A stretch of 64,000 nt of DNA from an uncultured Candidatus Saccharibacteria bacterium. GTDB taxonomy: Bacteria > Patescibacteriota > Minisyncoccia > Phycocordibacterales > PCTT01. Positions 13,243 to 54,077 of this stretch are shown here, piece after piece. The position numbers and the translations under genes are program-made. Position 1 is the stretch's first letter. Each line of letters opens with the position of its first letter. Where the stretch lies: positions 199,690 to 263,689 of the forward strand of contig CAZMIM010000001.1 in NCBI GenBank assembly GCA_964566505.1, in the 5' to 3' direction. The notes beneath the pieces were generated by a model. That model saw only the letters and a program-made list of their open reading frames with translations, was not told where the DNA came from and ran no database searches.

Positions 13243-13749
13243 TTAATTTATATATTTTTTACTTACAGAATAAAAAACAAATATACCTAATATGGTAAAT
13301 ATTGATTCTATAACCCAAAGTATTGTAGTGCCTGTTATTAGTATTCCCAAAAATCCAAACGCGATAGAGAAGAGCCCAAATACGGCCATAATTGATGTAG
13401 ATACTGTTACAACTTTTTTAGCATTAGAGATATAATATCTTCCCATAATCCACTTTGCTGAGTAGATTACTCCACCCCAAATTATCAGCACTCCAATAAT
13501 TCCCATGAAAATACTTGCAAATAATGAAGATTGATTGAATATTTCCAATAGATTGAATATGTACCCCAAAAAAATTCCTGCAATAATAGGAACAACAAAC
13601 CCAGAAGTTAAAAAATGGGTAATTCCTACATACCAGCCTCTTGCTTGTTTTAATTCTTTCATATTATAAACGTTTTTATTTTTATAAACTTTTACAAACT
13701 TAAGTATAACAAAAATATCCCCCCAACGGGGGATATTTTCTTGAGCCAC
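13243..13749 (-). CDS. hypothetical integral membrane protein
   Basis: 168 aa, about 4 TM helices. Confidence 0.4.
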   Translation of the reverse strand: MAQENIPRWGDIFVILKFVKVYKNKNVYNMKELKQARGWYVGITHFLTSGFVVPIIAGIFLGYIFNLLEIFNQSSLFASIFMGIIGVLIIWGGVIYSAKWIMGRYYISNAKKVVTVSTSIMAVFGLFSIAFGFLGILITGTTILWVIESIFTILGIFVFYSVSKKYIN

Positions 13750-14266: not shown

Positions 14267-14854
14267 TTATGCCCCCACAGCAAATCGTGAGTAGCGAACA
14301 ATTTGGGTGTTTTCTCCAAATTTTTGAACAGCTGCTTTTACAAGATCATCGATTGTCTTGTCGCCGTCTTTGATAAATGTCTGATTCAATAGAACTTTGT
14401 CTTTGAAGTATGAATCCATTTTACCTTGAAGAATCTGTTCTTGCATTTCAGCTGGCTTGTCTTCTACCTCTTTTTTAAATACCTCAAGAGCTGCTTCTTT
14501 ATCAGCATCTGTAATATCTTCTGAAGCCAGGAATTGTGGGTTCATTGCTGCTACATGCATTGCAATATCTCGAGCAAATGCCTGAAACTCTTCATTTTTT
14601 GATACAAAGTCTGTCTCACATGCAATCTCTACCATTGCTCCTACACTTCCTCCTGCGTGAATGTATGAAGCCACAGTACCAGCCTTTAGAGTTCGGTCGC
14701 TCTTCTTCTCTGCAGTTGCTCCACTTCGCTTTTGCAAAATCACAACAGCCTGCTTGAAATCTCCCCCAGCCTCTTCAAGCGCTTTTTTACACTGCATAAT
14801 AGAGATGCCTGTTTCATCTCTAAGTTTCTTTACGTCTTCTGTGGTGATAGTCAT
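14267..14854 (-). CDS. tsf: translation elongation factor Ts (short form)
   Basis: N-terminal UBA-like motif ITTEDVKKLRDETGISIMQCKKALEEAGGD; operon with rpsB. Confidence 0.9.
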   Translation of the reverse strand: MTITTEDVKKLRDETGISIMQCKKALEEAGGDFKQAVVILQKRSGATAEKKSDRTLKAGTVASYIHAGGSVGAMVEIACETDFVSKNEEFQAFARDIAMHVAAMNPQFLASEDITDADKEAALEVFKKEVEDKPAEMQEQILQGKMDSYFKDKVLLNQTFIKDGDKTIDDLVKAAVQKFGENTQIVRYSRFAVGA

Positions 14855-39595: not shown

Positions 39596-39749
39596 GAGTT
39601 TATTATAACACCAGTTTTATAACTGGAGACTAGGTCACTCTCGTGGATATTTCGCTTGTTGGCCGACTCGGGCTAGAACCGTGTTCGGTCAAGCCCTGTT
39701 TGACGGAATAGCTCTATTTTACACCCATTAAACGACGCGTCTCGAGCGC

Positions 39750-40055
39750 TTAAGAAATAGTTTGTTTAGCCGATTCCTCGATCTCTTTTTCTAGGACTGA
39801 GATCTCCTGCTTTAAATCTCCATCCGACACTTCAATATCCCAACTCTTATTGGTGTTTGCATACCAAATACCTTTTCCGGAAAGTCTTGAGATGTGAATT
39901 CGCACCAAGCTCAATAGCTCTTTTGTTTCCTTTTCGAGTCTATCCATCAGACCGGGCATCTGAGCAAACGCACCTGTTATGTAGTGCCAGTTCTCAGCTT
40001 CAAGAACACGACCCCCGATCATAATATCTTCAAACCTGGTGAGAGTGTAATTCAT
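39750..40055 (-). CDS. hypothetical protein
   Basis: 101-aa ORF. Confidence 0.35.
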   Translation of the reverse strand: MNYTLTRFEDIMIGGRVLEAENWHYITGAFAQMPGLMDRLEKETKELLSLVRIHISRLSGKGIWYANTNKSWDIEVSDGDLKQEISVLEKEIEESAKQTIS

Positions 40056-43400: not shown

Positions 43401-44568
43401 ATGCCTGTCCATGAATTCCAGAGAAATCCAAAAGCTGACCGAGTATATCTCGATCCATATCAACAAAAAAACTAAGAGTGTTATACCAAGATGGATAAAA
43501 TTCATTTATCGTTTCGTCAGCAGCAAAACTAAAAGTTGCCCGTCTTGGTTCTGGGAATCGTGTCAATTCTTTTGCTGCAAGATATTCTTGAAATTCAGCA
43601 TTCTCAAATTCAATACTGTTCGTGTCCTCTTTTGAAATTTGCAATAATGAATTTTTCAAAAGGATATCGATACCTACTTGGGCAAGTACCATTAACTTGA
43701 TATCGGACCTTACATCGTCAAAAAAAGTTACTAACTCATCGCGAGTAATTGAATTCGCTTGATAAATCTCCATTGTCAAAGCCAACTTCTCCAACAGTCG
43801 CTTTAACACTTGCTCCATTTCACGAATATCTTGATTATTCTGAGCTTCAATTCTTAATTTTGAATAGATAAAATGTTCAAAAAGTTCATTTCTTGATATC
43901 TCCTGTACATCAGTAACTGACTTATCAGTCATAAACTGCTCAAAGAGAAAAAGATAGCGTGGAATTTGGATAATAATCCTTCCATGAAATTGCATTGCTC
44001 GCTGCATTAACACATCAATGTCAGCAGAGCTACGGCTTCCACTAGAGAGATATTCCCTGAGCTGATTCGAGGTAAATGGTTTTATGGAAATAAAACGATA
44101 TTTAGAAAAGACATTTGCATATCTTTCCATAAATACCCAACGACTTGATATATAAATAATTAGATTTGGGTACTGACGGGATATATTCTGGACCTCCTGA
44201 AGAATGTCAGAAAAATGTGATGAGGGAACCTCATCTAAAGCATCAAGTAATAATGCTTTTGGTTTCTTTGTTCCTTTCTTCACAAAGTTACTTATTTCCT
44301 CGAAAGAATTTGGAGATCGAAGAGGAATAAACTTAGTTGTAAATCCTTTGCTCTGAAATTCCACATCAATTCTCTTCATTAACTCTGTTTTGCCAATACC
44401 AGGCTCTCCAACCACTATCGTATTTTTATCTTGGGTAAGATCAGAGATAGTAGTTGGACTAGCATCGTCAAAAACAAAACCATGACCATATTTCCCATAC
44501 TCTTCTTTTGCCTCCTTAAAAGTAGAGGATACTTCTGTTACTGGGAATATATATCGAGAATCATCCAT
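40474..44568 (-). CDS. NACHT/STAND-family P-loop NTPase (1364 aa) with long alpha-helical middle region, C-terminal PD-(D/E)xK-like nuclease motif and Lys-rich tail
   Basis: Walker A GEPGIGKT and NACHT-type Walker B ALLLDALDE near the N-terminus; about 900 aa helical repeats; C-terminal RVDLIIRYGFVGPVILEVKL (D...E.K) then KKKVAKKTTKKIAKKKSSKK tail. Confidence 0.8.
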   Translation of the reverse strand: MDDSRYIFPVTEVSSTFKEAKEEYGKYGHGFVFDDASPTTISDLTQDKNTIVVGEPGIGKTELMKRIDVEFQSKGFTTKFIPLRSPNSFEEISNFVKKGTKKPKALLLDALDEVPSSHFSDILQEVQNISRQYPNLIIYISSRWVFMERYANVFSKYRFISIKPFTSNQLREYLSSGSRSSADIDVLMQRAMQFHGRIIIQIPRYLFLFEQFMTDKSVTDVQEISRNELFEHFIYSKLRIEAQNNQDIREMEQVLKRLLEKLALTMEIYQANSITRDELVTFFDDVRSDIKLMVLAQVGIDILLKNSLLQISKEDTNSIEFENAEFQEYLAAKELTRFPEPRRATFSFAADETINEFYPSWYNTLSFFVDMDRDILGQLLDFSGIHGQAFKVVDEAFFNFLSRVNPKFIPDTTKERLFIDSVSYHNTKLQWIPGQLTSSLPGFYSSSLESFLKAQTEEAEAFTSNETKYYVPLGNISYVISYLLRAGLEIDITYWRGRLISYASGQSDNGVLPRHALLALAKLGDPTVIDELPDLTNAPDELVMREFVSLCSELDPNKDESVDAFIKLIRSNDLHGRYGLFEVTGLGALKRFLRKYNEDEQLRREFLDDSSIFKDKDHVLVDHIRAVADEEMREIVLEVIVKSLHYSVAHTRGESQFVIGLMHFLREENPDFIPNLIRQIQNSDDGENGLYFAQDLFAEILTPSDVGQYIDMMLEAGLHKMHLMNTLIRIKLRGDEDSDAIYEAGREKLPDSYREYEEARRQPPSDHEHVYDERILSEFRNALEPAPQQYMTRVFHDYNSNVEKLEKLMSDADRERFDTLIRQEVLRHDPAERGLTINSETDGGSSRNYTTSGAAIVFGDALAAAKHRGIDITPYRSNIARFIPFAHSENLKTVFELVPDFSAEELNSVIRIYNDRDSDLWRWQPDSLIEAAEQYNLTAAGQILRDFVRETQFRRYDREQSLSVAELLQPDEGFLKEIFSEYIEGSNDEKAIATKANGLLITKYAKPEAVHWRLEQVQARVAASAIRPRSGVVQDVTPFEDELHFGKEFAKPLMELKSYGFEEKFLDLIDKALEVWALGDGYHPYAQYLWEIVYAYFENLKEYGDYKPLRLLEEKIALVGNKKEGANWLAARMVSLRRSYLNTIGKPSQFAEAVRKYNSAREYDDKRIITSADLARHLHDAIDTDLRRWIEGEGAYELILTGKIYETKKQEYEKLIQKTLKSQIENVMLKRGFHVDLLREPDLLDDKRVDLIIRYGFVGPVILEVKLTSNSDIRSTSVSSSKSYKSLSQYMRGYGADYGIFLIIVNSSIRTLPRIKEEFSKIKGVTPVSIDCTKFVTPKKKVAKKTTKKIAKKKSSKKVTSRRS

Positions 44569-44587
44569 AACAACAAATTATTACAAC

Positions 44588-44899
44588 CTACTTATGCCTA
44601 GCAGCACGAAGAAGTTTACGTGCCAAGGCCTCAAGCTCAGCGTCAGATCCTGCAGTTTTCTTCCTTACAGATTTTGAAGGTCGACCGAGAAAGTATTCGT
44701 AATCCTTCATAAACAAATCTGCGAGTATCACTAGATCTCTAATTTTCAAACTTCGCTCTCCTCTTTCAATAAGAGAAATAGCGGTTGGAGAATCAAATTC
44801 CAGTATTTGAGCAAGGTTTGTTTGTGAATATCCAGCTTCAAGTCGACATTCACGTATCTTCTCACCTAATTGTTTATCGAATTCATGGTCAGTCGCCAT
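44588..44899 (-). CDS. XRE-family helix-turn-helix transcriptional regulator
   Basis: HTH_XRE motif LGEKIRECRLEAGYSQTNLAQIL; 19 bp upstream of and co-oriented with the STAND gene. Confidence 0.75.
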   Translation of the reverse strand: MATDHEFDKQLGEKIRECRLEAGYSQTNLAQILEFDSPTAISLIERGERSLKIRDLVILADLFMKDYEYFLGRPSKSVRKKTAGSDAELEALARKLLRAARHK

Positions 44900-45020
44900 A
44901 ACTACTGCATTATATTATCCACAATTTGATTTGAAAAGATTAATCAAAATGATAAACTTGTTTATATAAGGAGTAGTGGTAGCAATCAAGCAATTAGAAG
45001 AATCATTATGAAAACAGCAT

Positions 45021-46289
45021 ATGAAAAAACTTGCTTGGTCTACAACCCAACAAAAGGTTAACGATCTGCTCCCCCAGGAGGTTAATCCCCGCACTATTTC
45101 CGACAAGCAAATGTCGGATCTTAAAAGAAGCCTCAAGAAATACAATCTTGTGGAGATTCCCGCTATTGATGTAGATGGGACGATATTAGCTGGTCATCAG
45201 CGTATTAAGGCACTGCAACTCCTTGGGCGCGGTGAGGATATGATTGATGTCCGTGTACCCAACCGAAAACTCACCAAGGAAGAATCTAAAACATATCTCA
45301 TAGCGTCCAACAAGCTTGGCGGTGACTGGGATTTTGATCTTCTGAAGTCTTTTGATTTCGATACCTTGGAGTTCGCAGGGTTTGATCCCATCGAAGTCGG
45401 GGAACTCTTCGACAGAGATAACGAAGTTGCCGAAGAAGACTTTGATGTTGAGAAAGAACTAAAAAAGATTAAGAAGCCAAAAACAAAGCTTGGCGACATC
45501 GTTGTTCTTGGTAATCACCGTATTCTATGTGGCGACTCCACTAAGAAAGAGAACCTGAAGAGACTCTTCGGGAACAAAAAGGCATCGATGATATACAGCG
45601 ACCCTGTATACAACATTGATATCGACTATGACGGTGGTATTGGCGGAAAGAAAGAATACGGCGGAGATGTAAACGATACACGTTCGTTCGATGAGTACCG
45701 CACATTCCTCAACGACAGCATGGAAGCAGCACTTGCCGTTTCCAAAGAAGACCTACATATCTTCTATTGGTGCGATCAGATATACATCGGCGTTGTACAA
45801 AACCTGTACCGGTGGCTTGGTATTGCTAATAAGCGTGTGTGTTTGTGGCTCAAGAATAATCAGAACCCTGTTCCCTCGGTTGCGTTCAATAAAGCGTATG
45901 AACCTGCGGTATACGGCGTACGAGGCAAACCATACCTCGCCAACATACATAACCTCAACGAGGTAATGAATAAGGAACTCGGTACTGGCAATTCCCTGCT
46001 CGACGACATCTGGACAGCAAAACGTCTGACCGCCAAAGAGTACGAGCACGCCACATCAAAACCGCCACAGCTTCACGAGAAAGCGATTAAACGCTGCACC
46101 AAACCAAACGACATTATTCTCGACAGTTTCCTTGGTTCTGGCAGCACCCTTATTGCCGCAGAATCACTTGGTCGAAGAGTATATGGGTGTGAACTTGAAC
46201 CTGCGTTCTGCGATCTCATCGTTCGGAGATGGGAAAAGCTAACAGGCAAGAAAGTGTCCTATGAAAAAGACAAAGGTACTGGTAAATAA
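45021..46289 (+). CDS. ParB-like nuclease domain fused to a DNA methyltransferase (N6-A/N4-C class)
   Basis: N-terminal ParB/Srx fold (EIPAIDVDGTILAGHQRIKA); MTase motif IV-like SDPVYN and motif I LDSFLGSGSTLIAAE. Confidence 0.75.
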   Translation: MKKLAWSTTQQKVNDLLPQEVNPRTISDKQMSDLKRSLKKYNLVEIPAIDVDGTILAGHQRIKALQLLGRGEDMIDVRVPNRKLTKEESKTYLIASNKLGGDWDFDLLKSFDFDTLEFAGFDPIEVGELFDRDNEVAEEDFDVEKELKKIKKPKTKLGDIVVLGNHRILCGDSTKKENLKRLFGNKKASMIYSDPVYNIDIDYDGGIGGKKEYGGDVNDTRSFDEYRTFLNDSMEAALAVSKEDLHIFYWCDQIYIGVVQNLYRWLGIANKRVCLWLKNNQNPVPSVAFNKAYEPAVYGVRGKPYLANIHNLNEVMNKELGTGNSLLDDIWTAKRLTAKEYEHATSKPPQLHEKAIKRCTKPNDIILDSFLGSGSTLIAAESLGRRVYGCELEPAFCDLIVRRWEKLTGKKVSYEKDKGTGK

Positions 46290-46830
46290 ACTGCTTGCGG
46301 AAATTGAGAAAGCTCCTGTTATACAAGTGGCGTGCGATAAGGTAGGTATCTCAAGAAACACCTTCTACCGTTGGATCAAAGAGGACTCTGAGCTTATGGA
46401 GCGCATGAGTGAAGCCATGTCTCTTGGCACTGGGTTGGCAAATGATGTTGCGATAAGTAACGTTTTAGAGGGTGTAAAAAGAAAAGATCCGATGTACACA
46501 AAGTACTGGCTGAGCCACAAACATCCTGACTTCAGGAGACCCTTCGTCCATAAGGTTGACTCTGATGATCTACTCACTCATTTCCGGTCTGTTATGGAAG
46601 GTATACGGAAACGTGAAATTGCTCAAGAAATTGCAGATGAAGCAACCAGAATTGAAGGCGTAAGATTAGAGAAGGCACGAGAAGAAGTACAGGGATTCAT
46701 GGACAAGTGGAAAAATGTAATAAGCGAATCTCAACACAAAGAAGCCAGGAAACTATTCGAAGAATGGAAAGAAGACTTCCTCAGTGAAAAAGCTAGCCAA
46801 GCACAGCGCCTTAAAAAGCCAAAGAAATAA
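46261..46830 (+). CDS. HTH-domain protein resembling phage terminase small subunit / DNA-packaging HTH proteins
   Basis: N-terminal HTH VACDKVGISRNTFYRWIKED; overlaps the MTase gene end by 29 bp. Confidence 0.45.
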   Translation: MKKTKVLVNKLLAEIEKAPVIQVACDKVGISRNTFYRWIKEDSELMERMSEAMSLGTGLANDVAISNVLEGVKRKDPMYTKYWLSHKHPDFRRPFVHKVDSDDLLTHFRSVMEGIRKREIAQEIADEATRIEGVRLEKAREEVQGFMDKWKNVISESQHKEARKLFEEWKEDFLSEKASQAQRLKKPKK

Positions 46831-47173: not shown

Positions 47174-47503
47174 AGATTTTTTAATGACGAATAAATCTTA
47201 TGGCGGGTAACAAAAAGCCCGCCACCAAGTAGAGCCGAAGCTCATATCCCAAGTTTCCCTGGAATAGCTCAAGGAGAGACCCTTGATGACGGGTTCTTTA
47301 TTCTCCTTGAGACTTTTATATTCGGACCATACCGCCACAAACGTGTCGGGTTAGGTCGCTATATTGTGATGTCGAGCTCTTCGCTCAACATATACATAAT
47401 ATCGCTAAATAAAGGTGGTGTTAAGCAAGAAGCGAGTATGCGACGAATCACTGGTTCTGCATAGCTTAGCAAGACTAGTTTTCTCTGGCATTAATGGTTC
47501 CCT

Positions 47504-48883
47504 ATGGAACTAGCGAATATTACTCAATCAGCGTCTCAGCAAGCTGTCCAAATTGAGAAAGTAAAATATGTACTTTATGCTCGTAAATCGACCGAGCAAG
47601 ATGAGAAACAAGCACTCTCAATTGAGTCTCAAGTTAAAGAAATGCTTGCAATAGCTGAGCGAGAGAATCTAGAGATTGTTGATATTAGACGTGAGTCCCA
47701 CTCAGCAAAAAACTCGGGACAACGACCAGTCTTTAAAGAAATTCTTGAGGATATACGAAGAGAACGGTTCAACGGAATTCTCGTTTGGCATCCAGATAGA
47801 CTCAGCAGAAACGCTGGAGACTTAGGATCAGTTGTTGACCTTATGGACGAGAAATTACTTGTCCAAATAAGAACATACAGCCAAATATTCACCAACAACC
47901 CAAATGAGAAATTCCTCCTTATGATTCTTTGTTCTCAAGCGAAACTTGAGAACGACAACAAAAGCATCAACGTAAAGCGTGGTTTGAGGACAAGAGTTGA
48001 AATGGGACTTTGGCCAGCCCCTGCTCCAACTGGATATTTGAAAGAAAAACGAATGGATCGTAAATGCGAAACCATCATTGATCCAGAACGAGCGCCGGTT
48101 ATTAAACAAATGTTTGAGAAAGTCGCCTATGAAAAGTGGTCGGGGCGCAAACTCTATAACTGGCTCAAATTTGATCTCAATTTCAAAACTGTTGGAGGAA
48201 ACAAGAATCTCACGCTAGGAAATATCTATGTCATCCTCCAAAATCACTTTTACTACGGCACATTTGAATATCCAAAGAAGAGCGGTAATTGGTATCAAGG
48301 AAAACACAAACCAATCATCACTAAAGAGCTTTTTGATCAGGCACAGATGCAGCTTAAAGGAAACGAGCTAAAGACTCGAAAAGAAAAAGAGTTTGCGTTC
48401 ACAAGGCTAATGATCTGCGGACTCTGTGGATCTGGAATTACCGCTGATGAAAAATACAAAAAATTGAAAGACGGCACTGTAAACACTCACATATACTATG
48501 GCTGCACTAAAGTACGAGATAGAAACTGTAAGTGTGGCTACATTAACGAAGCTGATTTGATAGCTCAGTTTGAGAAGCTAATTGATGAGATTAATTTGGA
48601 TGAAATTGGTATTAAAGAAAAGATTAAACAGGAAGTGGTTCGTTTCAAGAAATTTCAGCAAATGCTAGTAGGTAATATCCAGAAAATTGAAGTGGTAGAT
48701 ATAGATATACGAAATTATACGATATATCTTCTTAGAGAAGGTTCGATAGCAGAAAAACGAGAGCTGTTGGGTAATTTAAAAAGCAAAATTTTCCTTGCGA
48801 ATAAAGAAATTAGGCTTTCTCAAGATCTAACCTCTTTAGAGTCATTGCATTCACAACGACAATCACCGTTGAGAGGCTCATGA
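47504..48883 (+). CDS. large serine recombinase (resolvase/invertase catalytic domain, recombinase domain and zinc-ribbon)
   Basis: Catalytic YARKSTEQDE...SIESQ; C-terminal CGLCGS...YYGCTK...CKCG zinc ribbon; coiled-coil tail. Confidence 0.85.
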   Translation: MELANITQSASQQAVQIEKVKYVLYARKSTEQDEKQALSIESQVKEMLAIAERENLEIVDIRRESHSAKNSGQRPVFKEILEDIRRERFNGILVWHPDRLSRNAGDLGSVVDLMDEKLLVQIRTYSQIFTNNPNEKFLLMILCSQAKLENDNKSINVKRGLRTRVEMGLWPAPAPTGYLKEKRMDRKCETIIDPERAPVIKQMFEKVAYEKWSGRKLYNWLKFDLNFKTVGGNKNLTLGNIYVILQNHFYYGTFEYPKKSGNWYQGKHKPIITKELFDQAQMQLKGNELKTRKEKEFAFTRLMICGLCGSGITADEKYKKLKDGTVNTHIYYGCTKVRDRNCKCGYINEADLIAQFEKLIDEINLDEIGIKEKIKQEVVRFKKFQQMLVGNIQKIEVVDIDIRNYTIYLLREGSIAEKRELLGNLKSKIFLANKEIRLSQDLTSLESLHSQRQSPLRGS

Positions 48884-50795
48884 CAAGCGCACCTATTTCA
48901 GGGCGCAAAAAGAAACCCCACACAGCAAATACTCCGGCTGCTGCGGGAATGGCAACGATATTGTACCCAAGTGCCCAGACGAGGTTCTGAATCATCTTTG
49001 CGTATACCTTCTTTGAGAGCGTTATGAGGCGCACGATATCTTGAGGGTCATTGTCGGTAAGCACCACATCGCCAGATTCAACCGCGACATCGGTGCCTGC
49101 GCCAATGGCGACTCCTGCGTCGGCTTGTGTGAGTGCAGGAGCATCGTTCACTCCATCACCGACCATAAGCACTACACTGCCATCCTCCTGAAGCTTCTTG
49201 ATGTGAGTGTATTTATCTTCCGGCAAGACATTTGCAAAATAGGTATCAATGCCAAGTTCTTCTGATACCGACTGTGCGACCTGTTCGTTGTCGCCGGTAA
49301 GCATAGCGACTTTCACACCCATGCCGTGTAGCTTTTGGACCGCCTCCTTTGAAGATTCTTTTATCGCATCGGAGAGAACCAGATATCCGAGCACCGCTTC
49401 CTTACTTGCTACAAAGACGAGCGTGCCATTTAGATTAGTGGGAGCGTCAAGATGTAAGTTTAAACTTCGAACCAGACGTTCGTTTCCTGCAAAGTATTCC
49501 GTGCCCTCAATTTCTGCTTTCACACCCTGTCCTGCAACATTTTGAAAATTATCAATATCGGAAATAGATACCTTTTGCTCTCGTGCATATTTGAGTATTG
49601 ACTGTCCGATGATATGTGAAGAATGCTGTTCGAGAGACGCTGCGATGGAGAGAATGTTGTTTGTATCTTGCTCTGCCAGAGGAATAACATCGGTCACGCC
49701 GAATTCTCCCTTAGTGAGCGTTCCTGTCTTATCAAACACTACATAGTCAGCTTTTCGTATTGTCTCTATCTTCGAAAGGTCTTTGATGAAAAATCCGTTC
49801 TTCACGGCAAGTGACGTGGTGATGGTTGTCACTGTAGGAATCGCAAGACCAAGCGCATGCGGACATGCAATAACGAGCACCGTAATAGCGAGCGTCACAG
49901 CGAACACAAACGGCTGACCGATCACTAGTGTCCACACGAGAAGCGTACCGAGTGCCGTGATGCCAGCAACAAAGGTGAGTACGGCAGATGCTTTATCCGC
50001 AATTCTCTGTGAACGTGGCTTTGTTTGACCGGCTTGTGCTATGAGCTTTTGTATTTGCCCGACTGTTGAATGCTCTCCAACACGGGAGAGCTTGATGGTA
50101 AGCGATCCATCAAGACAAATTGATCCCGCGACCACTTGAGCATCCACTTCTTTCTTCACCGGCTTTGACTCACCGCTTATAAGCGACTCATCTACATTTG
50201 CGAATCCTTTGGTAATAACACCATCCGCTGGAATCTTTTCACCCGGCTTCACTATGACAATATCGCCCTCCTGAAGCTCGGCGATATCGACATCAACTTC
50301 CGTGCCATTCTCAAGCTTATGCGCTTTCTTCGGCAAGAGCTTTGCGACTTCGGAGAGCGCATCTCCTGCAGCAGAGCTTGATTTGGCCTCGAGGTAATGT
50401 CCGAAAAGAAGTACCCACACGAGGGTGGAGATTTCAAGATAAAACTCAGCATGAAGTGAGGTAATAAACGTTGAGGCAACGGAAAAAAGATACCCGCTAC
50501 CCACCGCAAGCGACACGAGTGTCATCATGCCGTATTTGCGAGATTTTATTTCATGCCACGCGTGCTGGAAGAATACGAGCGCAAACCCAAAGATAATTGT
50601 TGCAATCCCAAACTGTATCCACTTGTTAAGTCCGAAGGAGATGCCAAGTATCTCTGATACTTTCGGATGTACGAGTACGAGTGGAATGAGGAGAAATGTG
50701 ACAATCCAGAATCGTCTTAAGTACTGCGCGGCAGATCCGTGACTCATTCCATGTGCTCCATGACTTGCGTGATTGTGATGGTGCTCATGTGCCAT
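48810..50795 (-). CDS. copA: copper-translocating P1B-type ATPase (no N-terminal HMA domain; His-rich N-terminus)
   Basis: CPH motif (IACPHALGLAIP), DKTGTLT, GDGVNDAPAL; N-terminal MAHEHHHNHASHGAHGMSH. GC is noticeably higher than the surrounding genes. Confidence 0.88.
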   Translation of the reverse strand: MAHEHHHNHASHGAHGMSHGSAAQYLRRFWIVTFLLIPLVLVHPKVSEILGISFGLNKWIQFGIATIIFGFALVFFQHAWHEIKSRKYGMMTLVSLAVGSGYLFSVASTFITSLHAEFYLEISTLVWVLLFGHYLEAKSSSAAGDALSEVAKLLPKKAHKLENGTEVDVDIAELQEGDIVIVKPGEKIPADGVITKGFANVDESLISGESKPVKKEVDAQVVAGSICLDGSLTIKLSRVGEHSTVGQIQKLIAQAGQTKPRSQRIADKASAVLTFVAGITALGTLLVWTLVIGQPFVFAVTLAITVLVIACPHALGLAIPTVTTITTSLAVKNGFFIKDLSKIETIRKADYVVFDKTGTLTKGEFGVTDVIPLAEQDTNNILSIAASLEQHSSHIIGQSILKYAREQKVSISDIDNFQNVAGQGVKAEIEGTEYFAGNERLVRSLNLHLDAPTNLNGTLVFVASKEAVLGYLVLSDAIKESSKEAVQKLHGMGVKVAMLTGDNEQVAQSVSEELGIDTYFANVLPEDKYTHIKKLQEDGSVVLMVGDGVNDAPALTQADAGVAIGAGTDVAVESGDVVLTDNDPQDIVRLITLSKKVYAKMIQNLVWALGYNIVAIPAAAGVFAVWGFFLRPEIGALVMSLSTVIVVVNAMTLKRLDLEKA

Positions 50796-50797
50796 AG

Positions 50798-51295
50798 TTA
50801 GATCGTCATAAATACTTCACCCTTTGCGCCATCGTGGGTGATCTCATAGATAACAAAATCAGACGTTTTTGGTCCGGGCATTCCTGGAGAGCCAGAGGGC
50901 ATACCTGCCATGCCGATACCTTTGATGTCGGGACGTTCAGCAAGTAATTTCTGAACCGCTTCCTCCGGTACGTGCCCCTCAACAACATAGCCGTCAATTT
51001 CCATTGTGTGACAACTCTCAAGCTCGTATGGCACATCGAATTGCTCTTTGATCGACTGCATGTCTGCTATGCCCTCAATATCAACACCGTATCCTTTCTT
51101 CTCTAAGTACGCTGCGTATTGTCCGCAACATCCGCAACTTGGTGATTTATAAATTGTCGCCAGGAGCCCGTTCGCAGGAGCTTCAGAGATTGTGTCTCCT
51201 TTTGGGAGTGTTTGCATCGCCATGACACCGATAACACCGATGACTGCAACAACGAGTATGCCGATAATAAGGTTGCTCTTCATACTAGTTTTCAT
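50798..51295 (-). CDS. DUF411 domain metal-binding protein (copper-resistance associated)
   Basis: SPSCGCCGQY and ESCHTMEIDGYVVEGHVP motifs of DUF411; signal/TM N-terminus. Confidence 0.65.
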   Translation of the reverse strand: MKTSMKSNLIIGILVVAVIGVIGVMAMQTLPKGDTISEAPANGLLATIYKSPSCGCCGQYAAYLEKKGYGVDIEGIADMQSIKEQFDVPYELESCHTMEIDGYVVEGHVPEEAVQKLLAERPDIKGIGMAGMPSGSPGMPGPKTSDFVIYEITHDGAKGEVFMTI

Positions 51296-51758
51296 TGAAC
51301 CATGTTTGTAGCCAACCTTTCATTTGCTCAACTTCAGCTGACTGACTTGCAATGATGTTGTTTGCAAGTTCAATAAGCTCTGGGCGATCTGTCTGCTCTA
51401 GTAGGTTCTCTGACATTCTGATCGCACCAAGATGATGTACAATCATGCCGCGAAGCCATGCCTCCTCGTATGCATCACCAGTTTGTCCGCGACCAATAAG
51501 CATCATTTCATCCATCATGTGCATCAATTCGCCATCACCGTTCACGATTTCATCTTCGTAAGAACCTCCCATGTGTTCTTCCATTTCCTCGTACATGGAT
51601 TCATTTGAGAAGAAACCGCGATGCGGCATATTGTTGGCACCAAAGAAGTAGCCGAGAAGCAGGCCGACGATAAGGGCGAGAAGACCAATAATGATTGTTT
51701 GATTTTTGTTTTCCATACTATTTTTTCTTAGCTTTATTAAATATACTGATAATCTCAC
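51285..51758 (-). CDS. DUF305 domain protein (copper-resistance associated)
   Basis: GMIVHHLGAIRMSE matches the DUF305 HH..M core; N-terminal TM. Confidence 0.65.
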   Translation of the reverse strand: MRLSVYLIKLRKNSMENKNQTIIIGLLALIVGLLLGYFFGANNMPHRGFFSNESMYEEMEEHMGGSYEDEIVNGDGELMHMMDEMMLIGRGQTGDAYEEAWLRGMIVHHLGAIRMSENLLEQTDRPELIELANNIIASQSAEVEQMKGWLQTWFNEN

Positions 51759-51996
51759 TGATCGCTTTTTTCTCCTGCCCCTGTTTCATCTGATGAATGA
51801 CGTGCTCGGAGAGGTGATTCTCAAGCATCAGATCCTCAACGGCCGAGAGTGCGCTGCGTACTGCGGATGACTGCGTAATAATATCTACGCAGTACTGCTC
51901 CTCATCGACCATCTTTTGGAGTCCGCGTACCTGACCCTCAACGCGCCGGAGACGATTTTGCACCTGTTTTTTGGTAGCTGCTTTCATATGCAACAT
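51718..51996 (-). CDS. csoR: CsoR/RcnR-family metal-sensing transcriptional repressor
   Basis: LRRVEGQVRGLQKMVDEEQYCVDIITQSSAVRSAL with conserved Cys/His metal ligands; the start is probably the second ATG (51987). Confidence 0.85.
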   Translation of the reverse strand: MLHMKAATKKQVQNRLRRVEGQVRGLQKMVDEEQYCVDIITQSSAVRSALSAVEDLMLENHLSEHVIHQMKQGQEKKAISEIISIFNKAKKK

Positions 51997-51998
51997 AT

Positions 51999-52015
51999 TA
52001 TACCCCTAGGGGGTA
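51999..52015. promoter_or_regulatory. CsoR-type operator ATACCCCTAGGGGGTAT overlapping a TATAAT -10 box immediately upstream of csoR
   Basis: GC-rich interrupted palindrome of the ATACCCnnnGGGGTAT type used by CsoR family repressors; minus-strand reading GTATACCCCCTAGGGGTATAAT-ATG. Confidence 0.6.
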
Positions 52016-52183
52016 TACGTGTACAGGTGGTATCCACAACAAGAAAGTCACCCGTTCGGGGGTGACTTTCTTGTTTGATTACTGCACTCAGCAGGTATGC
52101 AATTTATCGGAATAGATAATCAATCGGCTTTTTGACGATTCTCGTGCGCTCGTGGAGCGTAGAGATCTCGTGCTAGCTCGATT

Positions 52184-52257
52184 TGGCTGCCGGACAGGGA
52201 CTCGAACCCCGATTTCTTGGACCAAAACCAAGCGTCCTGCCATTAGACGATCCGGCA
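52184..52257 (-). tRNA. tRNA-Gln (anticodon UUG), U1-A72 pair, G73, CCA encoded
   Basis: UGCCGGA/UCCGGCA acceptor, anticodon stem CUUGG/CCAAG with loop UUUUGGU, T-arm CGGGGUUCGAGUCCCUG. Confidence 0.85.
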
Positions 52258-52316
52258 ATGTATTTAATTTTTATATATCTGCCAAATTTCAAGGTCCAAC
52301 TTGGACCGCAATACAA

Positions 52317-52349
52317 AATCTTGCAAGCATCCTACCATTAGACGATCCG
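52317..52349 (-). repeat. 30-bp direct duplicate (1 mismatch) of the tRNA-Gln 5' end plus 4-nt upstream flank; head of a degenerate pseudo-tRNA (about 52262-52349)
   Basis: cct[g/a]ccattagacgatccggcaatgtatt occurs at 52232-52264 and 52317-52349; the downstream part has lost the anticodon and T-arm pairing. Confidence 0.6.
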
Positions 52350-52419
52350 GCAATGTATTACCTAAAAACTGGCAATATACAAAACAGATTACCGTAGTAA
52401 TCTGCTTTGTGCAACGAAT

Positions 52420-53349
52420 TTATACCTTGAGATGCTTTCTGATTGCAAGGAAACTTGATAGTGCTCCTAGTAGTATTCCTGCCACAAGTAGTATCAAGAA
52501 CATTTGTCCAAAGTGATCAACATAATAGTCGAACACATTTGTAGCTCCGAAGAAGCTTTCTGTAAACGGCCCTAGCCAAATAGTTACTGGGTAGAAAATT
52601 ATTAGCGCAAATACCGCAGACACTACCCCATACATCATTCCCTCAAGAATAAATGGCCACCGTATATATGAGTTGCTAGCACCCACAAGCTTCATCACCG
52701 CAATCTCCTCACGCGCAGTGTATATAGCAAGCCTAATAGTGTTGAATACAATAGCAATCGAGATGATCACAAACATCACTAGTATCGCAAATGAAAGTGT
52801 GTCGATAGAGTTTATAAGTCGTGAGAGTTTGTCGATTGCCTCTTTGTTTTGGAAATAGTTTACCTTCTCAATAATCTGCGTGTTGCCTGCCCCGAGCGCG
52901 TTGTCTGACTCTAGGAAATTGGCGATACTCTCATACTGAGATGTTTCTTGTGCACGAATATTTAGGTGTGCACCAAGCGGGTTCTCATCAAGCTCATCAA
53001 GTGCTTGGATAATAAGCTGATCATTCTCGTGTCGGCGTGTGAATTCTTCTAACGCCTGCTCTCGTGATATATATTCTACAGATGAAGTCTCTGGAAGTTG
53101 TTCCAAGTCACCTTTAAGCGCCAATATTTCTGGCTCTGTTGCATCAAGTGTGAAATACACATTCACATCCACCTTTGATTGAAGCTGTCCGAGAGAAGAC
53201 TCGAGCATTGCGTCAAGGAAAATAAGAGACCCGAGCACAAAAAGTGTTACAGTCGTTACCAAAATACTTGCAGCAGTAATAAATGCGTTACGCCAAAAGC
53301 TTACAAACCCCGCTTTTATTACTCGTTTTGTTGAAGTCCAAAGATCCAT
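52420..53349 (-). CDS. ftsX: cell-division ABC transporter permease FtsX
   Basis: N-terminal TM, large periplasmic domain, 3 C-terminal TMs; downstream of ftsE. Confidence 0.82.
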   Translation of the reverse strand: MDLWTSTKRVIKAGFVSFWRNAFITAASILVTTVTLFVLGSLIFLDAMLESSLGQLQSKVDVNVYFTLDATEPEILALKGDLEQLPETSSVEYISREQALEEFTRRHENDQLIIQALDELDENPLGAHLNIRAQETSQYESIANFLESDNALGAGNTQIIEKVNYFQNKEAIDKLSRLINSIDTLSFAILVMFVIISIAIVFNTIRLAIYTAREEIAVMKLVGASNSYIRWPFILEGMMYGVVSAVFALIIFYPVTIWLGPFTESFFGATNVFDYYVDHFGQMFLILLVAGILLGALSSFLAIRKHLKV

Positions 53350-53351
53350 AA

Positions 53352-54077
53352 TTATATTTTATATTTACCGTGTTCGTCGTCGCTCACTATTTTACCATTC
53401 TCCATAGTAATAACTCGCTTTTTAAGTGAATCGATTACACCTTTGTTGTGAGTGGTGAGAATAACCGTTGTGCCAAGATCATTAATTTTTTTGAGAATCT
53501 GCACAATATCGTGAGTGTTAATAGGGTCAAGGTTTCCTGTAGGCTCATCTGCAATCACCAAATCAGGTTGGTTCACAATCGCTCGCGCGATAGCAAGCCG
53601 TTGCTTTTCTCCACCTGAGAGCTCTCCAGGGAAATTCCAAATCTTGTCTCCTAGGTCTACAAGGTCAAGTACATGAGGTACATCAGACTCAATATCTTCA
53701 TCGCTTCGCCCCGCCGCTTCCATAGCAAAAGCAATATTTTCAAACGCTGTCTTGTGAGGAAGAAGTCTAAAGTCCTGAAACACCATACCAATTCGGCGCC
53801 TATACAAGTTGAGCTCTTTTTTATCTAGGTCGTGTACTCTTATTCTATCGAAAAACACATCTCCTGAAGTTGGTCGCTCCTCTGCAAGAATCATTTTCAA
53901 AAGCGTACTCTTTCCTGCTCCTGAGTGCCCCACAATAGAAACAAACTCTTTTGGATATACATCCAAAGACACGCCATCGAGCGCATTTACTCCTCCTATG
54001 TATTCCTTCTTTACTTTATTGAAATGTAAAAGTGGCTCTTTTTTCTTCGAGTCACCCTCGTCTGTGTGGTGTGTCAT
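53352..54077 (-). CDS. ftsE: cell-division ABC transporter ATP-binding protein FtsE
   Basis: Walker [10 protein letters not shown], signature [14 protein letters not shown], Walker [12 protein letters not shown]. Confidence 0.9.

What the first reader, a model, noticed from the sequence alone, without database searches (positions are those of the whole stretch)
52184..52420. tRNA-Gln followed by a 30-bp duplicate of its 5' end (degenerate pseudo-tRNA): likely integration/excision scar at the island edge
The segment cct[g/a]ccattagacgatccggcaatgtatt occurs twice, 85 bp apart, at 52232-52264 and 52317-52349. The first copy is the 5' acceptor/D-arm of an intact tRNA-Gln(UUG). The second begins a roughly 90-nt tRNA-like sequence whose anticodon and T arms no longer pair. 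tRNA genes are classic integration targets, and partial tRNA repeats mark att sites. The island (recombinase, cop cassette) lies on the 3' side of this tRNA.
Basis: seen in the sequence. Interest (0 to 1): 0.55.

Follow-up and report, generated by a model that had tools for sequence, protein, structure and literature searches.

The report
Truncated tRNA-Gln copy upstream of gene
Just upstream of an intact glutamine tRNA gene in a candidate-phyla-radiation bacterium lies a dead, truncated copy of that gene's first 29 bases; it is a scar of DNA rearrangement at a tRNA hot spot, of a kind that recurs across this phylum and often encloses homing-endonuclease genes, and it is not the junction of the neighbouring copper-resistance/recombinase island.

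Summary
The repeat is real: 36 nt (7-nt leader plus tRNA positions 1-29) occur at 52229-52264 and 52324-52359, 34/36 identical and 95 nt apart.

The tRNA-Gln(UUG) is on the minus strand. The extra copy therefore lies upstream of the gene, between ftsX and the tRNA, on the side away from the island. It is not a tRNA by ARAGORN, nor by Rfam at E<=10. It ends in a disrupted anticodon arm and a fold-back palindrome.

A metagenome contig (L089) with an almost identical tRNA has the same fragment, junction and palindrome in a different gene context without the island. A pattern scan found 32 more cases of a truncated 5' tRNA-Gln copy followed by an intact tRNA-Gln in Patescibacteria-like contigs. 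In larger versions a GIY-YIG or LAGLIDADG endonuclease gene sits between fragment and tRNA.

The island (cop cassette, large serine recombinase (LSR), methylase, STAND NTPase; about 39.6-52.1 kb) lies 3' of the tRNA. Homologous recombinases sit 3' of tRNA-Gln in eight other loci, none with a window-type fragment.

Verdict: a real pseudo-tRNA scar at a genuine integration hot spot, but not the island's att site. The mechanism is only partly resolved.

The parts
52184..52257 (-). Intact tRNA-Gln(UUG) with encoded CCA.
   Evidence: ARAGORN. Rfam tRNA 58.4 bits. Clean cloverleaf as the minimum-free-energy fold. 71/72 identical to the tRNA-Gln of L089.
52229..52264 (-). Repeat copy B: 7-nt leader AATACAT plus tRNA positions 1-29 (acceptor 5' strand, D arm, first 3 nt of the anticodon stem).
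   Evidence: the repeat finder family D1. 25-mer search.
52324..52359 (-). Repeat copy A: the truncated 5' copy (pseudo-tRNA fragment), 34/36 identical to copy B. It keeps the T in the D loop that relatives have.
   Evidence: Not called as tRNA by ARAGORN or by Rfam at E<=10.
52265..52323 (-). 59-nt spacer between the copies. It consists of 16 nt that replace the anticodon loop, the palindrome, and an AT-rich stretch with promoter-like hexamers.
   Evidence: Global alignment to the tRNA 3' part is not significant (p=0.26). Only GT.TT..GGTCCAAG aligns locally (p=0.057). No homologue in 124 loci except the identical L081. TTGGCA-17-TACATT promoter-like match.
52293..52307 (-). Fold-back palindrome GGTCCAAGTTGGACC. 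Its first 8 nt equal tRNA positions 35-42 (end of the anticodon loop plus the 3' strand of the anticodon stem).
   Evidence: Read directly from the sequence. The self-complementary match is reported. L089 has the longer form GGTCCAAGAAATTCTTGGAC at the same place.
52379..52410 (-). Hairpin plus T run immediately after the ftsX stop codon; probably the ftsEX terminator. It separates ftsX from the fragment.
   Evidence: Inverted repeat I3, 14-nt arms, 93% complementary.
52420..53349 (-). ftsX, the core gene upstream of the fragment. ftsE lies at 53352-54077.
   Evidence: Pfam FtsX_ECD and FtsX. In L082 ftsX is followed 42 nt later by tRNA-Gln(UUG) with no fragment.
52038..52115 (-). Conserved module 3' of the tRNA: CTATTCCG, then the hairpin GCATACCTGCTGAGTGCAGTA, then a terminator hairpin.
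   Evidence: Conserved in L083/84/85, L014, L016, L059 and L076, always downstream of tRNA-Gln, with compensatory changes in the hairpin.
48810..51996 (-). cop cassette: CsoR-type repressor, DUF305, DUF411 and a P-type ATPase. GC content is 0.45-0.48 against about 0.40 elsewhere.
   Evidence: Pfam. Composition. L052 also has tRNA-Gln followed by csoR and the ATPase.
47504..48883 (+). Large serine recombinase of the island, convergent with the tRNA.
   Evidence: Pfam Resolvase, Recombinase and Zn_ribbon_recom. Homologues at 33-65% identity lie 3' of tRNA-Gln in L014, L063, L078, L029, L053, L045, L083/84 and L088.
47231..47357 (-). LOOT RNA (RF03000), divergent from the recombinase gene and part of the island.
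   Evidence: Rfam 51.8 bits. Also present in the recombinase islands of L083 (79 bits) and L053 (71 bits).
39596..39750 (-). Candidate distal end of the island. It holds the second CTATTCCG (39704-39711) and a weak tRNA-Gln 3'-end-like 23-mer (39658-39680). Core genes resume at 39595.
   Evidence: Genes at 37.5-39.6 kb are neighbours of tRNA-Gln in relatives L013, L052 and L064. 23-mer scan. The alignment is only p=0.008 and is not the best in a window-wide control. Tentative.

Best explanation
The second copy is a dead, truncated 5' copy of the tRNA-Gln gene.

Anatomy:
- It keeps the 7-nt leader and positions 1-29.
- Its anticodon loop is replaced by 16 unrelated bases.
- Eight bases of the anticodon arm (positions 35-42) follow, and these fold back on themselves in a palindrome.
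- There is no T arm. The only possible 3' acceptor strand is a weak TTTGGCA that needs two G-U pairs, so the copy cannot make a tRNA.
- It sits upstream of the intact gene, between the ftsX terminator and the tRNA.

Proposed origin: it is a partial-duplication scar created at the tRNA gene itself. It is not the junction of the recombinase/cop island, which was inserted independently on the tRNA's 3' side by a large serine recombinase family that recurrently occupies that flank.

The scar is old. A second genome (L089) shares the same junction and palindrome. The 5' block has stayed nearly identical to the gene while the spacer diverged. The most likely reason is gene conversion from the intact copy 95 nt away (inferred).

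It belongs to an architecture that recurs in Patescibacteria: a truncated 5' tRNA copy, then hairpin(s), then an intact tRNA. In its complete form this architecture encloses a GIY-YIG or LAGLIDADG endonuclease gene.

The mechanism I commit to, at about 45%, is a break or insertion in the tRNA gene caused by such a homing-endonuclease-type cassette. It was repaired with duplication of the 5' part so that a working tRNA was kept, and the endonuclease gene was later lost.

Shown: the anatomy, the non-functionality, the position relative to the island, the recurrence, and the association with endonuclease genes.
Inferred: the endonuclease origin of this particular copy, and gene conversion.
For: Anatomy and non-functionality.

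Independence from the island:
- The fragment lies on the ftsX side.
- The recombinase homologue lies 3' of tRNA-Gln, convergent, in 9 distinct loci.
- No window-type fragment occurs in the other loci.
- L089 has the fragment, the same GCTTG|CA junction and a GGTCCAAG...CTTGGAC palindrome next to a 71/72-identical tRNA. Its neighbours are Dus, dnaX and DUF3298, with no recombinase.

Recurrence:
- 32 of 40 occurrences of the two-copy pattern in metagenome contigs consist of a non-tRNA fragment followed by an intact tRNA-Gln. Only 3 are true tandem tRNAs.
- In an unbiased set of 51 ftsX-linked loci, 5 have an upstream 5' fragment, against a null of 0/265.

Endonuclease link:
- GIY-YIG ORFs lie between fragment and tRNA in L011, L047, L124 and L088.
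- LAGLIDADG ORFs do so in L063, L030 and L018, and in L062 and L060 for tRNA-Asp.
- GIY-YIG ORFs are enriched within 100 nt of tRNAs: 8 of 27 against 4.5% expected, P=1.6e-5.

Constraint:
- Fragment identity between window and L089 is about 35/36, while the spacer is barely alignable.
- Hairpins after the fragment show compensatory changes in another subclass.
Against: - The window has no GIY-YIG or LAGLIDADG gene or recognisable remnant, and the 59-nt spacer has no homologue in any endonuclease-bearing locus.
- The window/L089 subclass differs from the endonuclease-bearing cases. Its fragment ends at position 29-30 and resumes at 35-42/46, rather than ending at 19-26. It has no hairpin inserted in the D loop. 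It also duplicates 7-15 nt of upstream flank, which fits a local tandem or fold-back duplication at least as well.
- Gene conversion is inferred from two genomes only. The two mismatches in the window show that it is not currently homogenising.
- The metagenome scan required both copies to carry the same 14-mer 60-90 nt apart. Frequencies from it are therefore biased towards short, well-preserved forms.
- The ~80-aa GIY-YIG proteins are catalytic domain only, and none has been shown to cut tRNA genes.
Confidence: 0.55

Rival explanations
1. Spontaneous local rearrangement with no mobile DNA involved. Replication slippage or fold-back template switching at the anticodon hairpin duplicated the leader and the 5' two-thirds of the gene. 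The upstream copy then decayed, except where gene conversion keeps it like the gene.
For: - The upstream flank is duplicated together with the tRNA part: 7 nt in the window and 15 nt in L089.
- The copy ends in a near-perfect palindrome built from the anticodon-stem strand. That is typical of fold-back events.
- There is no endonuclease gene or remnant in the window.
Against: - The same general architecture recurs in dozens of unrelated contigs and at three different tRNA species. It is repeatedly linked to two unrelated endonuclease families. Chance slippage does not predict this.
- True tandem tRNA-Gln pairs are rare, 3 of 40 occurrences.
Confidence: 0.25
2. One reading: the partial repeat is the att scar (attL/attR remnant) of the recombinase/cop island that integrated into tRNA-Gln.
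For: - tRNA-Gln is clearly the target region of this island family.
- Partial tRNA repeats are common att scars in these genomes.
- A weak tRNA-3'-end-like 23-mer lies at the candidate distal end of the island.
Against: - The fragment is on the side of the tRNA away from the island, and the two copies enclose 59 nt only.
- The repeat is the 5' part of the tRNA.
- Serine recombinases exchange at a 2-bp core and leave no long repeats (established knowledge of the family).
- Eight other loci with the homologous recombinase lack the fragment.
- L089 has the fragment without the island.
- There is no third copy in 64 kb.
- The distal 23-mer is not significant in a window-wide control.
Confidence: 0.05
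3. The fragment is a functional cis element rather than junk. It would be a tRNA-like leader or insulator: a short transcript or structure from the native promoter, ending in a hairpin, that controls or insulates transcription or processing of the tRNA-Gln behind it, or acts as a decoy for a tRNA-binding protein.
For: - The 5' block is conserved between the window and L089 at tRNA-like level, while the flanks are saturated.
- The palindrome is retained in both despite indels.
- In another subclass the hairpin after the fragment keeps pairing through three compensatory changes in five sequences.
- ORF-less short forms are common and stable across samples.
Against: - The fold of the window's fragment region is not exceptional: z=-1.6, with 14 of 200 shuffles folding as well.
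- The palindrome is not followed by a proper T run, and no terminator is called there.
- The closest relatives L082 and L083 do without the fragment.
- Fragment end points and hairpins vary widely between lineages.
- Gene conversion explains the conservation without any function.
Confidence: 0.12
4. The fragment is the remnant of a vanished integrase-type element with a '5'-type' attachment site. The element carried the leader and 5' part of tRNA-Gln in its attP, inserted into the anticodon-stem region, and was later almost entirely deleted. This left the displaced chromosomal 5' part plus 59 nt.
For: - The sharp boundary in or near the anticodon stem-loop, which is the classical crossover region for tRNA-targeting integrases.
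- In several metagenome cases the fragment's acceptor sequence differs from that of the intact tRNA, as if the two came from different lineages (L087, L093, L099, L107, L118, L120, L123).
Against: - No integrase is seen between fragment and tRNA in any of the examples examined. What is found there is endonuclease ORFs or hairpins.
- Known tRNA-targeting elements restore the 3' part, not the 5' part.
- In the window and L089 the two copies share leader and sequence, so they derive from the same gene.
Confidence: 0.08
5. The second copy is a functional tRNA paralogue, that is, a simple tandem tRNA-Gln array.
For: Its acceptor 5' strand and D arm are intact. A TTTGGCA 3' of the palindrome could pair with the 5' strand using two G-U pairs.
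Against: - ARAGORN makes no call, and Rfam gives no tRNA hit at E<=10.
- There is no T arm and no anticodon loop.
- L089 lacks any 3' acceptor strand.
- Rfam calls only the intact gene in L089.
Confidence: 0.01

Closest known systems
Partial tRNA direct repeats at attL/attR of integrative elements that target tRNA genes (sublocation classes of Williams 2002; recalled from my own knowledge)
   Same: A piece of a tRNA gene is duplicated next to an intact, functional copy at a locus that is demonstrably an integration hot spot. Classical 3'-end repeats are indeed present downstream of tRNA-Gln in 13 of 51 related loci.
   Different: - Here the 5' part plus leader is duplicated, not the 3' part.
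- The copies bracket 59 nt, not an element.
- The neighbouring island uses a serine, not a tyrosine, recombinase.
- The island lies on the other side of the gene.
Partial host-gene duplications created by free-standing homing endonuclease genes. Examples are fungal mitochondrial genes with duplicated ends next to GIY-YIG or LAGLIDADG ORFs, and phage T4 segB in the tRNA cluster (my own knowledge; several hits describe the mitochondrial cases).
   Same: In related contigs a GIY-YIG or LAGLIDADG ORF is flanked by a truncated copy and an intact copy of the same gene. The host keeps a working gene while the selfish ORF sits inside the locus.
   Different: - The host gene is a bacterial tRNA.
- The duplicated part is the 5' part.
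- The GIY-YIG proteins are ~80-aa catalytic domains without a recognisable DNA-binding domain.
- The window's copy has no ORF at all.
[quoted passage not shown] 2026, PMC13011429)
   Same: Same phylum. Selfish or self-splicing insertions in tRNA genes, sometimes with homing endonuclease genes, are unusually frequent there.
   Different: - Those are true introns at position 35/36 of tRNA-Asn and tRNA-Asp, with a 3' exon only.
- Here a complete tRNA follows the insert, and no group I intron is detected by Rfam.
- The paper does not mention tRNA-Gln, GIY-YIG or duplications.
Large serine recombinase integrative elements (phiC31, Bxb1, A118, SCCmec-type)
   Same: The island's recombinase has the three defining domains. 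Its family occupies one conserved chromosomal site in many genomes, with the gene at the element's edge.
   Different: - The site is the 3' flank of tRNA-Gln in Patescibacteria.
- Its att sites are not resolved here.
- This system explains the island, not the 5' fragment.
tRNA pseudogenes and decayed tandem tRNA duplicates
   Same: A non-functional tRNA-derived sequence next to its parent gene.
   Different: - The decay is not gradual. Identity is 94% up to position 29 and then drops to background.
- The same junction is shared with a second genome.

Membership tests
Functional tRNA (tandem tRNA-Gln paralogue) | Detected by tRNA covariance or heuristic models (Rfam RF00005 at >=29 bits; ARAGORN). 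| tested here: not met
   Only 52184-52257 is called. There is no tRNA hit on 52258-52359 even at E<=10.
Functional tRNA (tandem tRNA-Gln paralogue) | Complete cloverleaf: anticodon arm with a 7-nt loop, T arm, and a 3' acceptor strand. | tested here: not met
   After position 29 the sequence diverges. There is no T arm. Only a weak TTTGGCA is a possible 3' strand in the window, and none exists in L089.
att direct repeat of a tRNA-targeting integrative island | The two repeat copies flank the island. | tested here: not met
   The copies are 95 nt apart and lie on the ftsX side. The island lies 3' of the tRNA.
att direct repeat of a tRNA-targeting integrative island | The repeat is the 3' portion of the tRNA, restored by the element. 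| tested here: not met
   The repeat is the leader plus positions 1-29. No copy of the 3' end at <=3 mismatches exists in the window.
att direct repeat of a tRNA-targeting integrative island | The repeat co-occurs with the island in relatives and is absent from island-free relatives. | tested here: not met
   L089 has the fragment without the recombinase or the cop cassette. Loci with the recombinase (L014, L083, L078, L029, L053, L045) lack such a fragment.
Large serine recombinase integrative element (the island, not the fragment) | Recombinase with Resolvase, Recombinase and zinc-ribbon domains. | tested here: met
   Pfam E-values 9.5e-24, 1.9e-13 and 7e-08.
Large serine recombinase integrative element (the island, not the fragment) | Site-specific: homologues occupy the same chromosomal site in different genomes. 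| tested here: met
   The homologue is convergent and 3' of tRNA-Gln in 9 distinct loci, at about 90-2,300 nt (3.3 kb in the window).
Large serine recombinase integrative element (the island, not the fragment) | Defined attL/attR hybrid sites with a short common core. | tested here: inconclusive
   CTATTCCG occurs only at 52108-52115 and 39704-39711, both on the minus strand, and the reconstructed sites show some dyad symmetry. However, the proximal module also exists in recombinase-free loci, and the distal evidence is weak.
Homing-endonuclease cassette with partial tRNA duplication (architecture defined here from related contigs) | A truncated 5' copy of a tRNA lies upstream of an intact copy of the same tRNA. 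| tested here: met
   The same architecture occurs in L011, L047, L063, L124, L088 and in 32 metagenome occurrences.
Homing-endonuclease cassette with partial tRNA duplication (architecture defined here from related contigs) | An endonuclease ORF (GIY-YIG or LAGLIDADG) lies between the fragment and the intact tRNA. | tested here: not met
   The spacer is 59 nt with no ORF. tblastn finds no GIY-YIG or LAGLIDADG hit in the whole window.
Homing-endonuclease cassette with partial tRNA duplication (architecture defined here from related contigs) | A hairpin follows or interrupts the fragment. | tested here: met
   The palindrome GGTCCAAGTTGGACC lies at 52293-52307. It differs from the D-loop twin hairpins of the ORF-bearing cases.
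Homing-endonuclease cassette with partial tRNA duplication (architecture defined here from related contigs) | The endonuclease cuts the uninterrupted tRNA gene (homing). | not testable with these tools
   This needs cleavage assays or population data.
Group I intron in a tRNA gene | A group I catalytic core lies between a 5' exon and a 3' exon. | tested here: not met
   Rfam finds no Intron_gpI hit in the window or at 52100-52480 at E<=10. In addition, a complete tRNA follows the insert, not a 3' exon.

The most novel reading that the evidence does not exclude
The window's fragment is an ORF-less member of an apparently undescribed class of selfish insertions in Patescibacteria. In this class, homing-endonuclease cassettes (GIY-YIG or LAGLIDADG) invade intron-less tRNA genes (Gln, Thr, Asp). 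They preserve tRNA function by duplicating the gene's 5' part instead of by splicing. What is left behind is a truncated 5' copy, structured hairpins and a rebuilt tRNA. After loss of the ORF, the fragment-plus-hairpin leader persists and may be kept by selection or gene conversion.
Probability: 0.4. Interest if true: 0.7.

Novelty: new variant of a known kind. Interest (0 to 1): 0.5.

Why it matters
The feature in the window is itself modest: a pseudo-tRNA fragment. Following it up gives three results.

1. Partial tRNA repeats next to an island are not automatically that island's att site. Here the island has a serine recombinase and lies on the tRNA's 3' flank, while the repeat on the 5' side has separate histories.

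2. tRNA-Gln in Paceibacteria-like genomes is a crowded hot spot. It carries a recombinase family specific for its 3' flank and common 3'-end scars. It also carries a recurrent 5'-fragment architecture that in fuller versions holds homing-endonuclease genes.

3. If the endonuclease link holds, it shows a way for homing endonucleases to colonise tRNA genes without an intron, in a phylum already known for unusual tRNA and rRNA introns.

There is also a practical consequence. Such fragments can mislead tRNA annotation and island-boundary prediction in candidate-phyla-radiation (CPR) genomes.

Tried and rejected
- **Third copy or distal att.** Searches for the 5' 25-mer and for the tRNA 3' 32-mer and 18-mer at <=3 mismatches found nothing beyond the known copies.
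- **Is the spacer a decayed tRNA 3' half?** The global alignment is not significant (p=0.26). Only GGTCCAAG aligns locally (p=0.057).
- **Homologues of the 59-nt spacer.** blastn-short against 124 loci plus the window gave only noise.
- **Close relatives with or without the island.** The nearest FtsX is 76% identical. The exact-protein look-up found only a 1.1-kb contig identical to the window. The recombinase is not on record as an exact product.
- **Exact att sites of the island.**
  - The conserved module after the tRNA looked like the element's end, but it also occurs in recombinase-free loci.
  - The distal tRNA-like 23-mer plus flank aligns at only p=0.008 and is beaten by chance tiles elsewhere in the window.
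  - L033 shares the sequences flanking the distal junction, but its ORFs are unrelated.
  - The att sites are left unresolved.
- **Terminator/antiterminator or tRNA-like fold for the fragment.** The fold z-score is -1.6, no terminator is called at the palindrome, and the only promoter-like match would start transcription inside the tRNA.
- **Group I intron or other Rfam family in the region.** None found.
- **Literature.** No paper was found that links GIY-YIG, candidate-phyla-radiation (CPR) bacteria and tRNA, or serine recombinases and tRNA-Gln. The one related paper concerns tRNA group I introns.
Full report
**1. The observation**

ARAGORN finds six tRNA genes in the window. One is tRNA-Gln(UUG) at 52184-52257 on the minus strand. 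Rfam scores it 58.4 bits, and it folds into a clean cloverleaf.

The repeat finder reports a 36-nt direct repeat at 52229-52264 and 52324-52359, 34/36 identical, with a spacing of 95. A 25-mer from it occurs exactly twice in the window, against 0 expected in shuffles.

Read on the coding (minus) strand, the repeat is AATACAT plus tRNA positions 1-29. That covers the acceptor 5' strand, the D arm and the first bases of the anticodon stem. Its coordinates for the second copy are about 10 nt off, and the spacing is 95, not 85.

Because the gene is on the minus strand, the extra copy lies upstream of the tRNA. It sits between the hairpin that follows ftsX (52379-52410) and the gene. An independently assembled 1.1-kb Logan contig (L081) is identical across the fragment and into the tRNA.

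**2. What the second copy is**

It is not a tRNA. ARAGORN does not call it, and a permissive Rfam scan of 52100-52480 (E<=10) returns only the intact gene.

Identity stops sharply after position 29. The remaining 59 nt do not align significantly with the tRNA's 3' part (global p=0.26). The exception is GGTCCAAG, which equals positions 35-42 (local p=0.057).

Those eight bases are the first arm of a 15-nt palindrome, GGTCCAAGTTGGACC (52293-52307). No T arm follows. A TTTGGCA could pair weakly with the 5' strand, but the fold is unremarkable (z=-1.6).

No terminator is called at the palindrome. The only promoter-like match (TTGGCA-17-TACATT) would start transcription inside the tRNA.

The two mismatches are C in the gene against T in the fragment, at positions 19 and 24. 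At position 19 the fragment keeps the T found in the relatives' tRNA-Gln.

**3. The organism and the neighbourhood**

The FtsX protein places the window among Patescibacteria (Paceibacteria/Parcubacteria-type MAGs). The nearest relatives are only 72-76% identical.

On the minus strand the order is:
- prfB-like gene, ftsE, ftsX;
- the fragment, then tRNA-Gln;
- a conserved 75-nt module;
- csoR, DUF305, DUF411 and a P-type ATPase.

On the plus strand follow a large serine recombinase (47504-48883), an HTH protein and an N6/N4 methylase. A LOOT RNA and a 1,364-aa STAND NTPase lie on the minus strand.

The cop genes have a higher GC content.

Genes at 37.5-39.6 kb have homologues that are direct neighbours of tRNA-Gln in relatives such as L013 and L052. 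The island therefore spans roughly 39.6-52.1 kb, on the tRNA's 3' side.

**4. The island and tRNA-Gln**

Homologues of the recombinase (33-65% identity) occur in L014, L063, L078, L029, L053, L045, L083/L084 and L088. In every case the gene is convergent with a tRNA-Gln (CUG or UUG) and lies about 90-2,300 nt 3' of it. This recombinase family therefore occupies the 3' flank of tRNA-Gln.

None of L014, L083, L078, L029, L053 or L045 has a 5' fragment upstream of the tRNA. L063 and L088 do have one, but of the endonuclease type described in section 7, not the window type.

A module downstream of the tRNA is conserved in L083/85, L014, L016, L059 and L076. It consists of CTATTCCG, the hairpin GCATACCTGCTGAGTGCAGTA (with compensatory changes between genomes) and a terminator. 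Three of those loci lack the recombinase, so the module is not simply the element's end.

CTATTCCG occurs only twice in the window. The second copy is at 39704-39711, 24 nt before a weak tRNA-3'-end-like 23-mer. That evidence is not robust. I leave the att sites unresolved.

LOOT RNA recurs in the islands of L083 and L053.

**5. The fragment is independent of the island**

- The closest relative with the same gene order (L082, 76% FtsX identity) has ftsX followed 42 nt later by tRNA-Gln(UUG), with no fragment.
- A metagenome contig (L089) carries a tRNA-Gln(UUG) that is 71/72 identical to the window's. Upstream of it is the same fragment, with the same junction (GGACGCTTG|CA) and an AT-rich replacement of the anticodon loop. 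After that the similarity resumes (GGTCCAAGAAAT, positions 35-46) and runs into a palindrome (GTCCAAGAAATTCTTGGAC). Fifteen nt of leader are duplicated.
- Removing the central AAATTC from L089's palindrome gives exactly the window's palindrome.
- L089's neighbours are Dus, dnaX and a DUF3298 protein. No window protein, and no recombinase, has a homologue there.

The structure therefore predates the split of the two lineages and is unrelated to the island. The fragment is about 35/36 identical between the two genomes while the spacer is barely alignable. This calls for constraint. With an intact copy 95-99 nt away, gene conversion is the simplest source (inference).

**6. A recurrent architecture**

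I scanned metagenome contigs for GGATCGTCTAATGG, a 60-90-nt gap, then GGATCGTCTAATGG. This gave 39 loci and 40 occurrences.

- In 32 occurrences (about 28 distinct sequences) the upstream copy is not a tRNA and the downstream copy begins an intact tRNA-Gln.
- Only three are true tandem tRNA pairs.
- Fragments end mostly at positions 19-24. A second group ends at positions 30-35 and includes L089 (30), L100 (31) and L091/96 and L095 (35); by the same measure the window ends at 29 and L107 ends near 31.
- The fragments are followed by hairpins. These are often GC-rich twin hairpins inserted in the D loop. In one subclass it is a long AT-rich hairpin that keeps pairing through three compensatory changes in five sequences.

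In the unbiased set of 51 ftsX-linked loci with an intact tRNA-Gln:
- 5 have a 5' fragment within 1.5 kb upstream (window, L011, L023, L063, L074), against 0 of 265 shuffled controls;
- 13 have a 3'-end fragment downstream.

**7. The link to endonuclease genes**

Where the gap is larger, it holds an endonuclease gene.

- ~80-aa GIY-YIG ORFs (Pfam E 1e-13 to 1e-18) lie between a fragment and an intact tRNA in L011, L124 and L088 (tRNA-Gln) and in L047 (tRNA-Thr). They lie next to 3' copies in L123 and L076.
- LAGLIDADG ORFs lie 7-17 nt upstream of intact tRNA-Gln in L063, L030 and L018, and of tRNA-Asp in L062 and L060. Decayed pieces of the same tRNA lie just upstream of each ORF.
- GIY-YIG ORFs are enriched near tRNAs: 8 of 27 within 100 nt against 4.5% expected, P=1.6e-5. 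One caveat is that the loci were chosen around tRNA-Gln.

The searchable literature has no description of this. The nearest work is on group I introns in Patescibacteria tRNA genes (PMC13011429). It does not mention tRNA-Gln, GIY-YIG or duplications.

**8. Explanation and its limits**

I regard these points as shown:
- the copy is a dead, truncated 5' duplicate;
- it is not the island's att site;
- it is one instance of a recurrent Patescibacteria architecture.

I infer, at about 45%, that this instance descends from an endonuclease-type insertion or break in the tRNA gene, repaired with duplication of the 5' part and followed by loss of the ORF.

Against this:
- the window has no endonuclease remnant;
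- the window/L089 subclass differs from the ORF-bearing cases in its boundary and in lacking a D-loop hairpin;
- it duplicates leader sequence, which fits a spontaneous fold-back or tandem duplication about as well (rival, 25%).

**9. Verdict**

As a single feature it is ordinary. Its value lies in the pattern it exposes. I rate it a new variant of a known kind, interest 0.5.

Noticed in passing
window 47504-48883 (+); L014 14846-16102, L063 16606-17955, L078 9188-9832, L029 7292-8290, L053 14768-15886, L045 14264-15025, L083 12022-13308, L088 5648-6739: A family of large serine recombinases always sits convergent to a tRNA-Gln gene (CUG or UUG) and a few hundred nt 3' of it, in 9 distinct Patescibacteria loci. 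It appears to be a recombinase lineage specific for the tRNA-Gln 3' flank. Its att sites were not resolved.
   Followed up: partly
window 52038-52115 (-); L083 11968-12047, L014 ~14745-14830, L016 ~11345-11430, L059 ~13330-13410, L076 ~17845-17760: A ~75-nt module lies downstream of tRNA-Gln: CTATTC(C/T)G, a hairpin GCATACCTGCTGAG(A/T)GCAGTA with compensatory changes (CTGC/GCAG, CCGC/GCGG, CCGG/CCGG), and a terminator hairpin. It is about 96% conserved in the hairpin across genomes whose FtsX is only 55-65% identical. It is present with and without the recombinase. Its function is unknown (small RNA, or a protein or recombinase site?).
   Followed up: partly
L011 12880-13282; L047 1-407; L124 617-1070; L088 4700-5290; L123 1466-1990; L076 17940-18350: ~80-aa GIY-YIG-domain-only ORFs are nested between a truncated copy and an intact copy of tRNA-Gln or tRNA-Thr, or between an intact tRNA and a 3' copy. 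In L076 an 85-nt direct repeat (tRNA positions 53-72 plus 65 nt of flank) brackets the ORF.
   Followed up: partly
L063 13527-14351; L030 11039-11850; L018 10694-11504; L062 1569-2340; L060 3620-4379: LAGLIDADG ORFs end 7-17 nt before intact tRNA-Gln or tRNA-Asp genes. They are preceded by decayed pieces of the same tRNA: the D arm for Gln, and TGGTTAG plus the anticodon loop CCTGTCAC for Asp. No group I intron is called there.
   Followed up: partly
L086, L088, L097, L122, L123, L124 (positions); L011 12893-12932; L047 ~45-84: GC-rich twin hairpins (for example CCCCGCCAAAGCGGGG TCCCGCTGAGGCGGGA) are always inserted after G18G19 in the D loop of the non-functional tRNA copies. This holds in both tRNA-Gln and tRNA-Thr fragments. 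L088 also has a 20-nt complementary insert in the anticodon loop.
   Followed up: partly
L082 11041-11199; L052 13071-13220; L006, L007, L016, L031, L054, L059, L060, L072, L074 (offsets): In 13 of 51 loci the tRNA-Gln is followed, 110-320 nt downstream, by a 15-20-nt direct repeat of its 3' end. Several of these also have an inverted copy of the T-arm/acceptor 3' strand in between. This may be a small scar bounded by direct repeats, or a miniature element.
   Followed up: partly
window 47231-47357 (-); L083 15785-15912; L053 18964-19079: LOOT RNA (Rfam RF03000) recurs inside the recombinase islands, divergent from the recombinase/methylase operon. Its role is unknown.
   Followed up: partly
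window 48810-52020; L052 12999-15752: The cop cassette has a CsoR-type operator palindrome, ATACCCCTAGGGGGTAT, at 52000-52016. The same order (tRNA-Gln, csoR, P-type ATPase) occurs in the distant relative L052, which has no recombinase. The ATPase ORF and the recombinase ORF overlap convergently at 48810-48883.
   Followed up: partly
window 40474-46830: The island cargo looks defence-like. It includes a 1,364-aa STAND-type NTPase (nSTAND3/HEAT, weak hits), an XRE-type HTH protein (44588-44899), an N6/N4 DNA methylase (45021-46289) and a small HTH protein (46261-46830). L083 has a ParB-methylase and a small protein in the same positions.
   Followed up: no
window 52140-52183 (-); L076 13210-13252; L023 downstream of the 3' fragment; L033 14322-14337, 14857-14880: CACGAGA-type repeats (TCGAGCTAGCACGAGATC...CACGAGCGCACGAGAA) directly follow the tRNA-Gln 3' end or its displaced 3' fragment in several genomes. 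A related motif (CGAGACGCGTCG) lies at the window's candidate distal junction (39730-39750).
   Followed up: no
L045 4288-4498 (-): A group I intron (Rfam 66 bits) lies in a relative's locus near the tRNA cluster. This is consistent with the reported abundance of group I introns in Patescibacteria.
   Followed up: no
L081 (whole contig, 1149 nt): The only other contig encoding the identical FtsX stops inside tRNA-Gln at position 46. This is probably an assembly-graph branch caused by other organisms sharing the tRNA's 5' two-thirds. It was not taken as evidence for strain variation.
   Followed up: no
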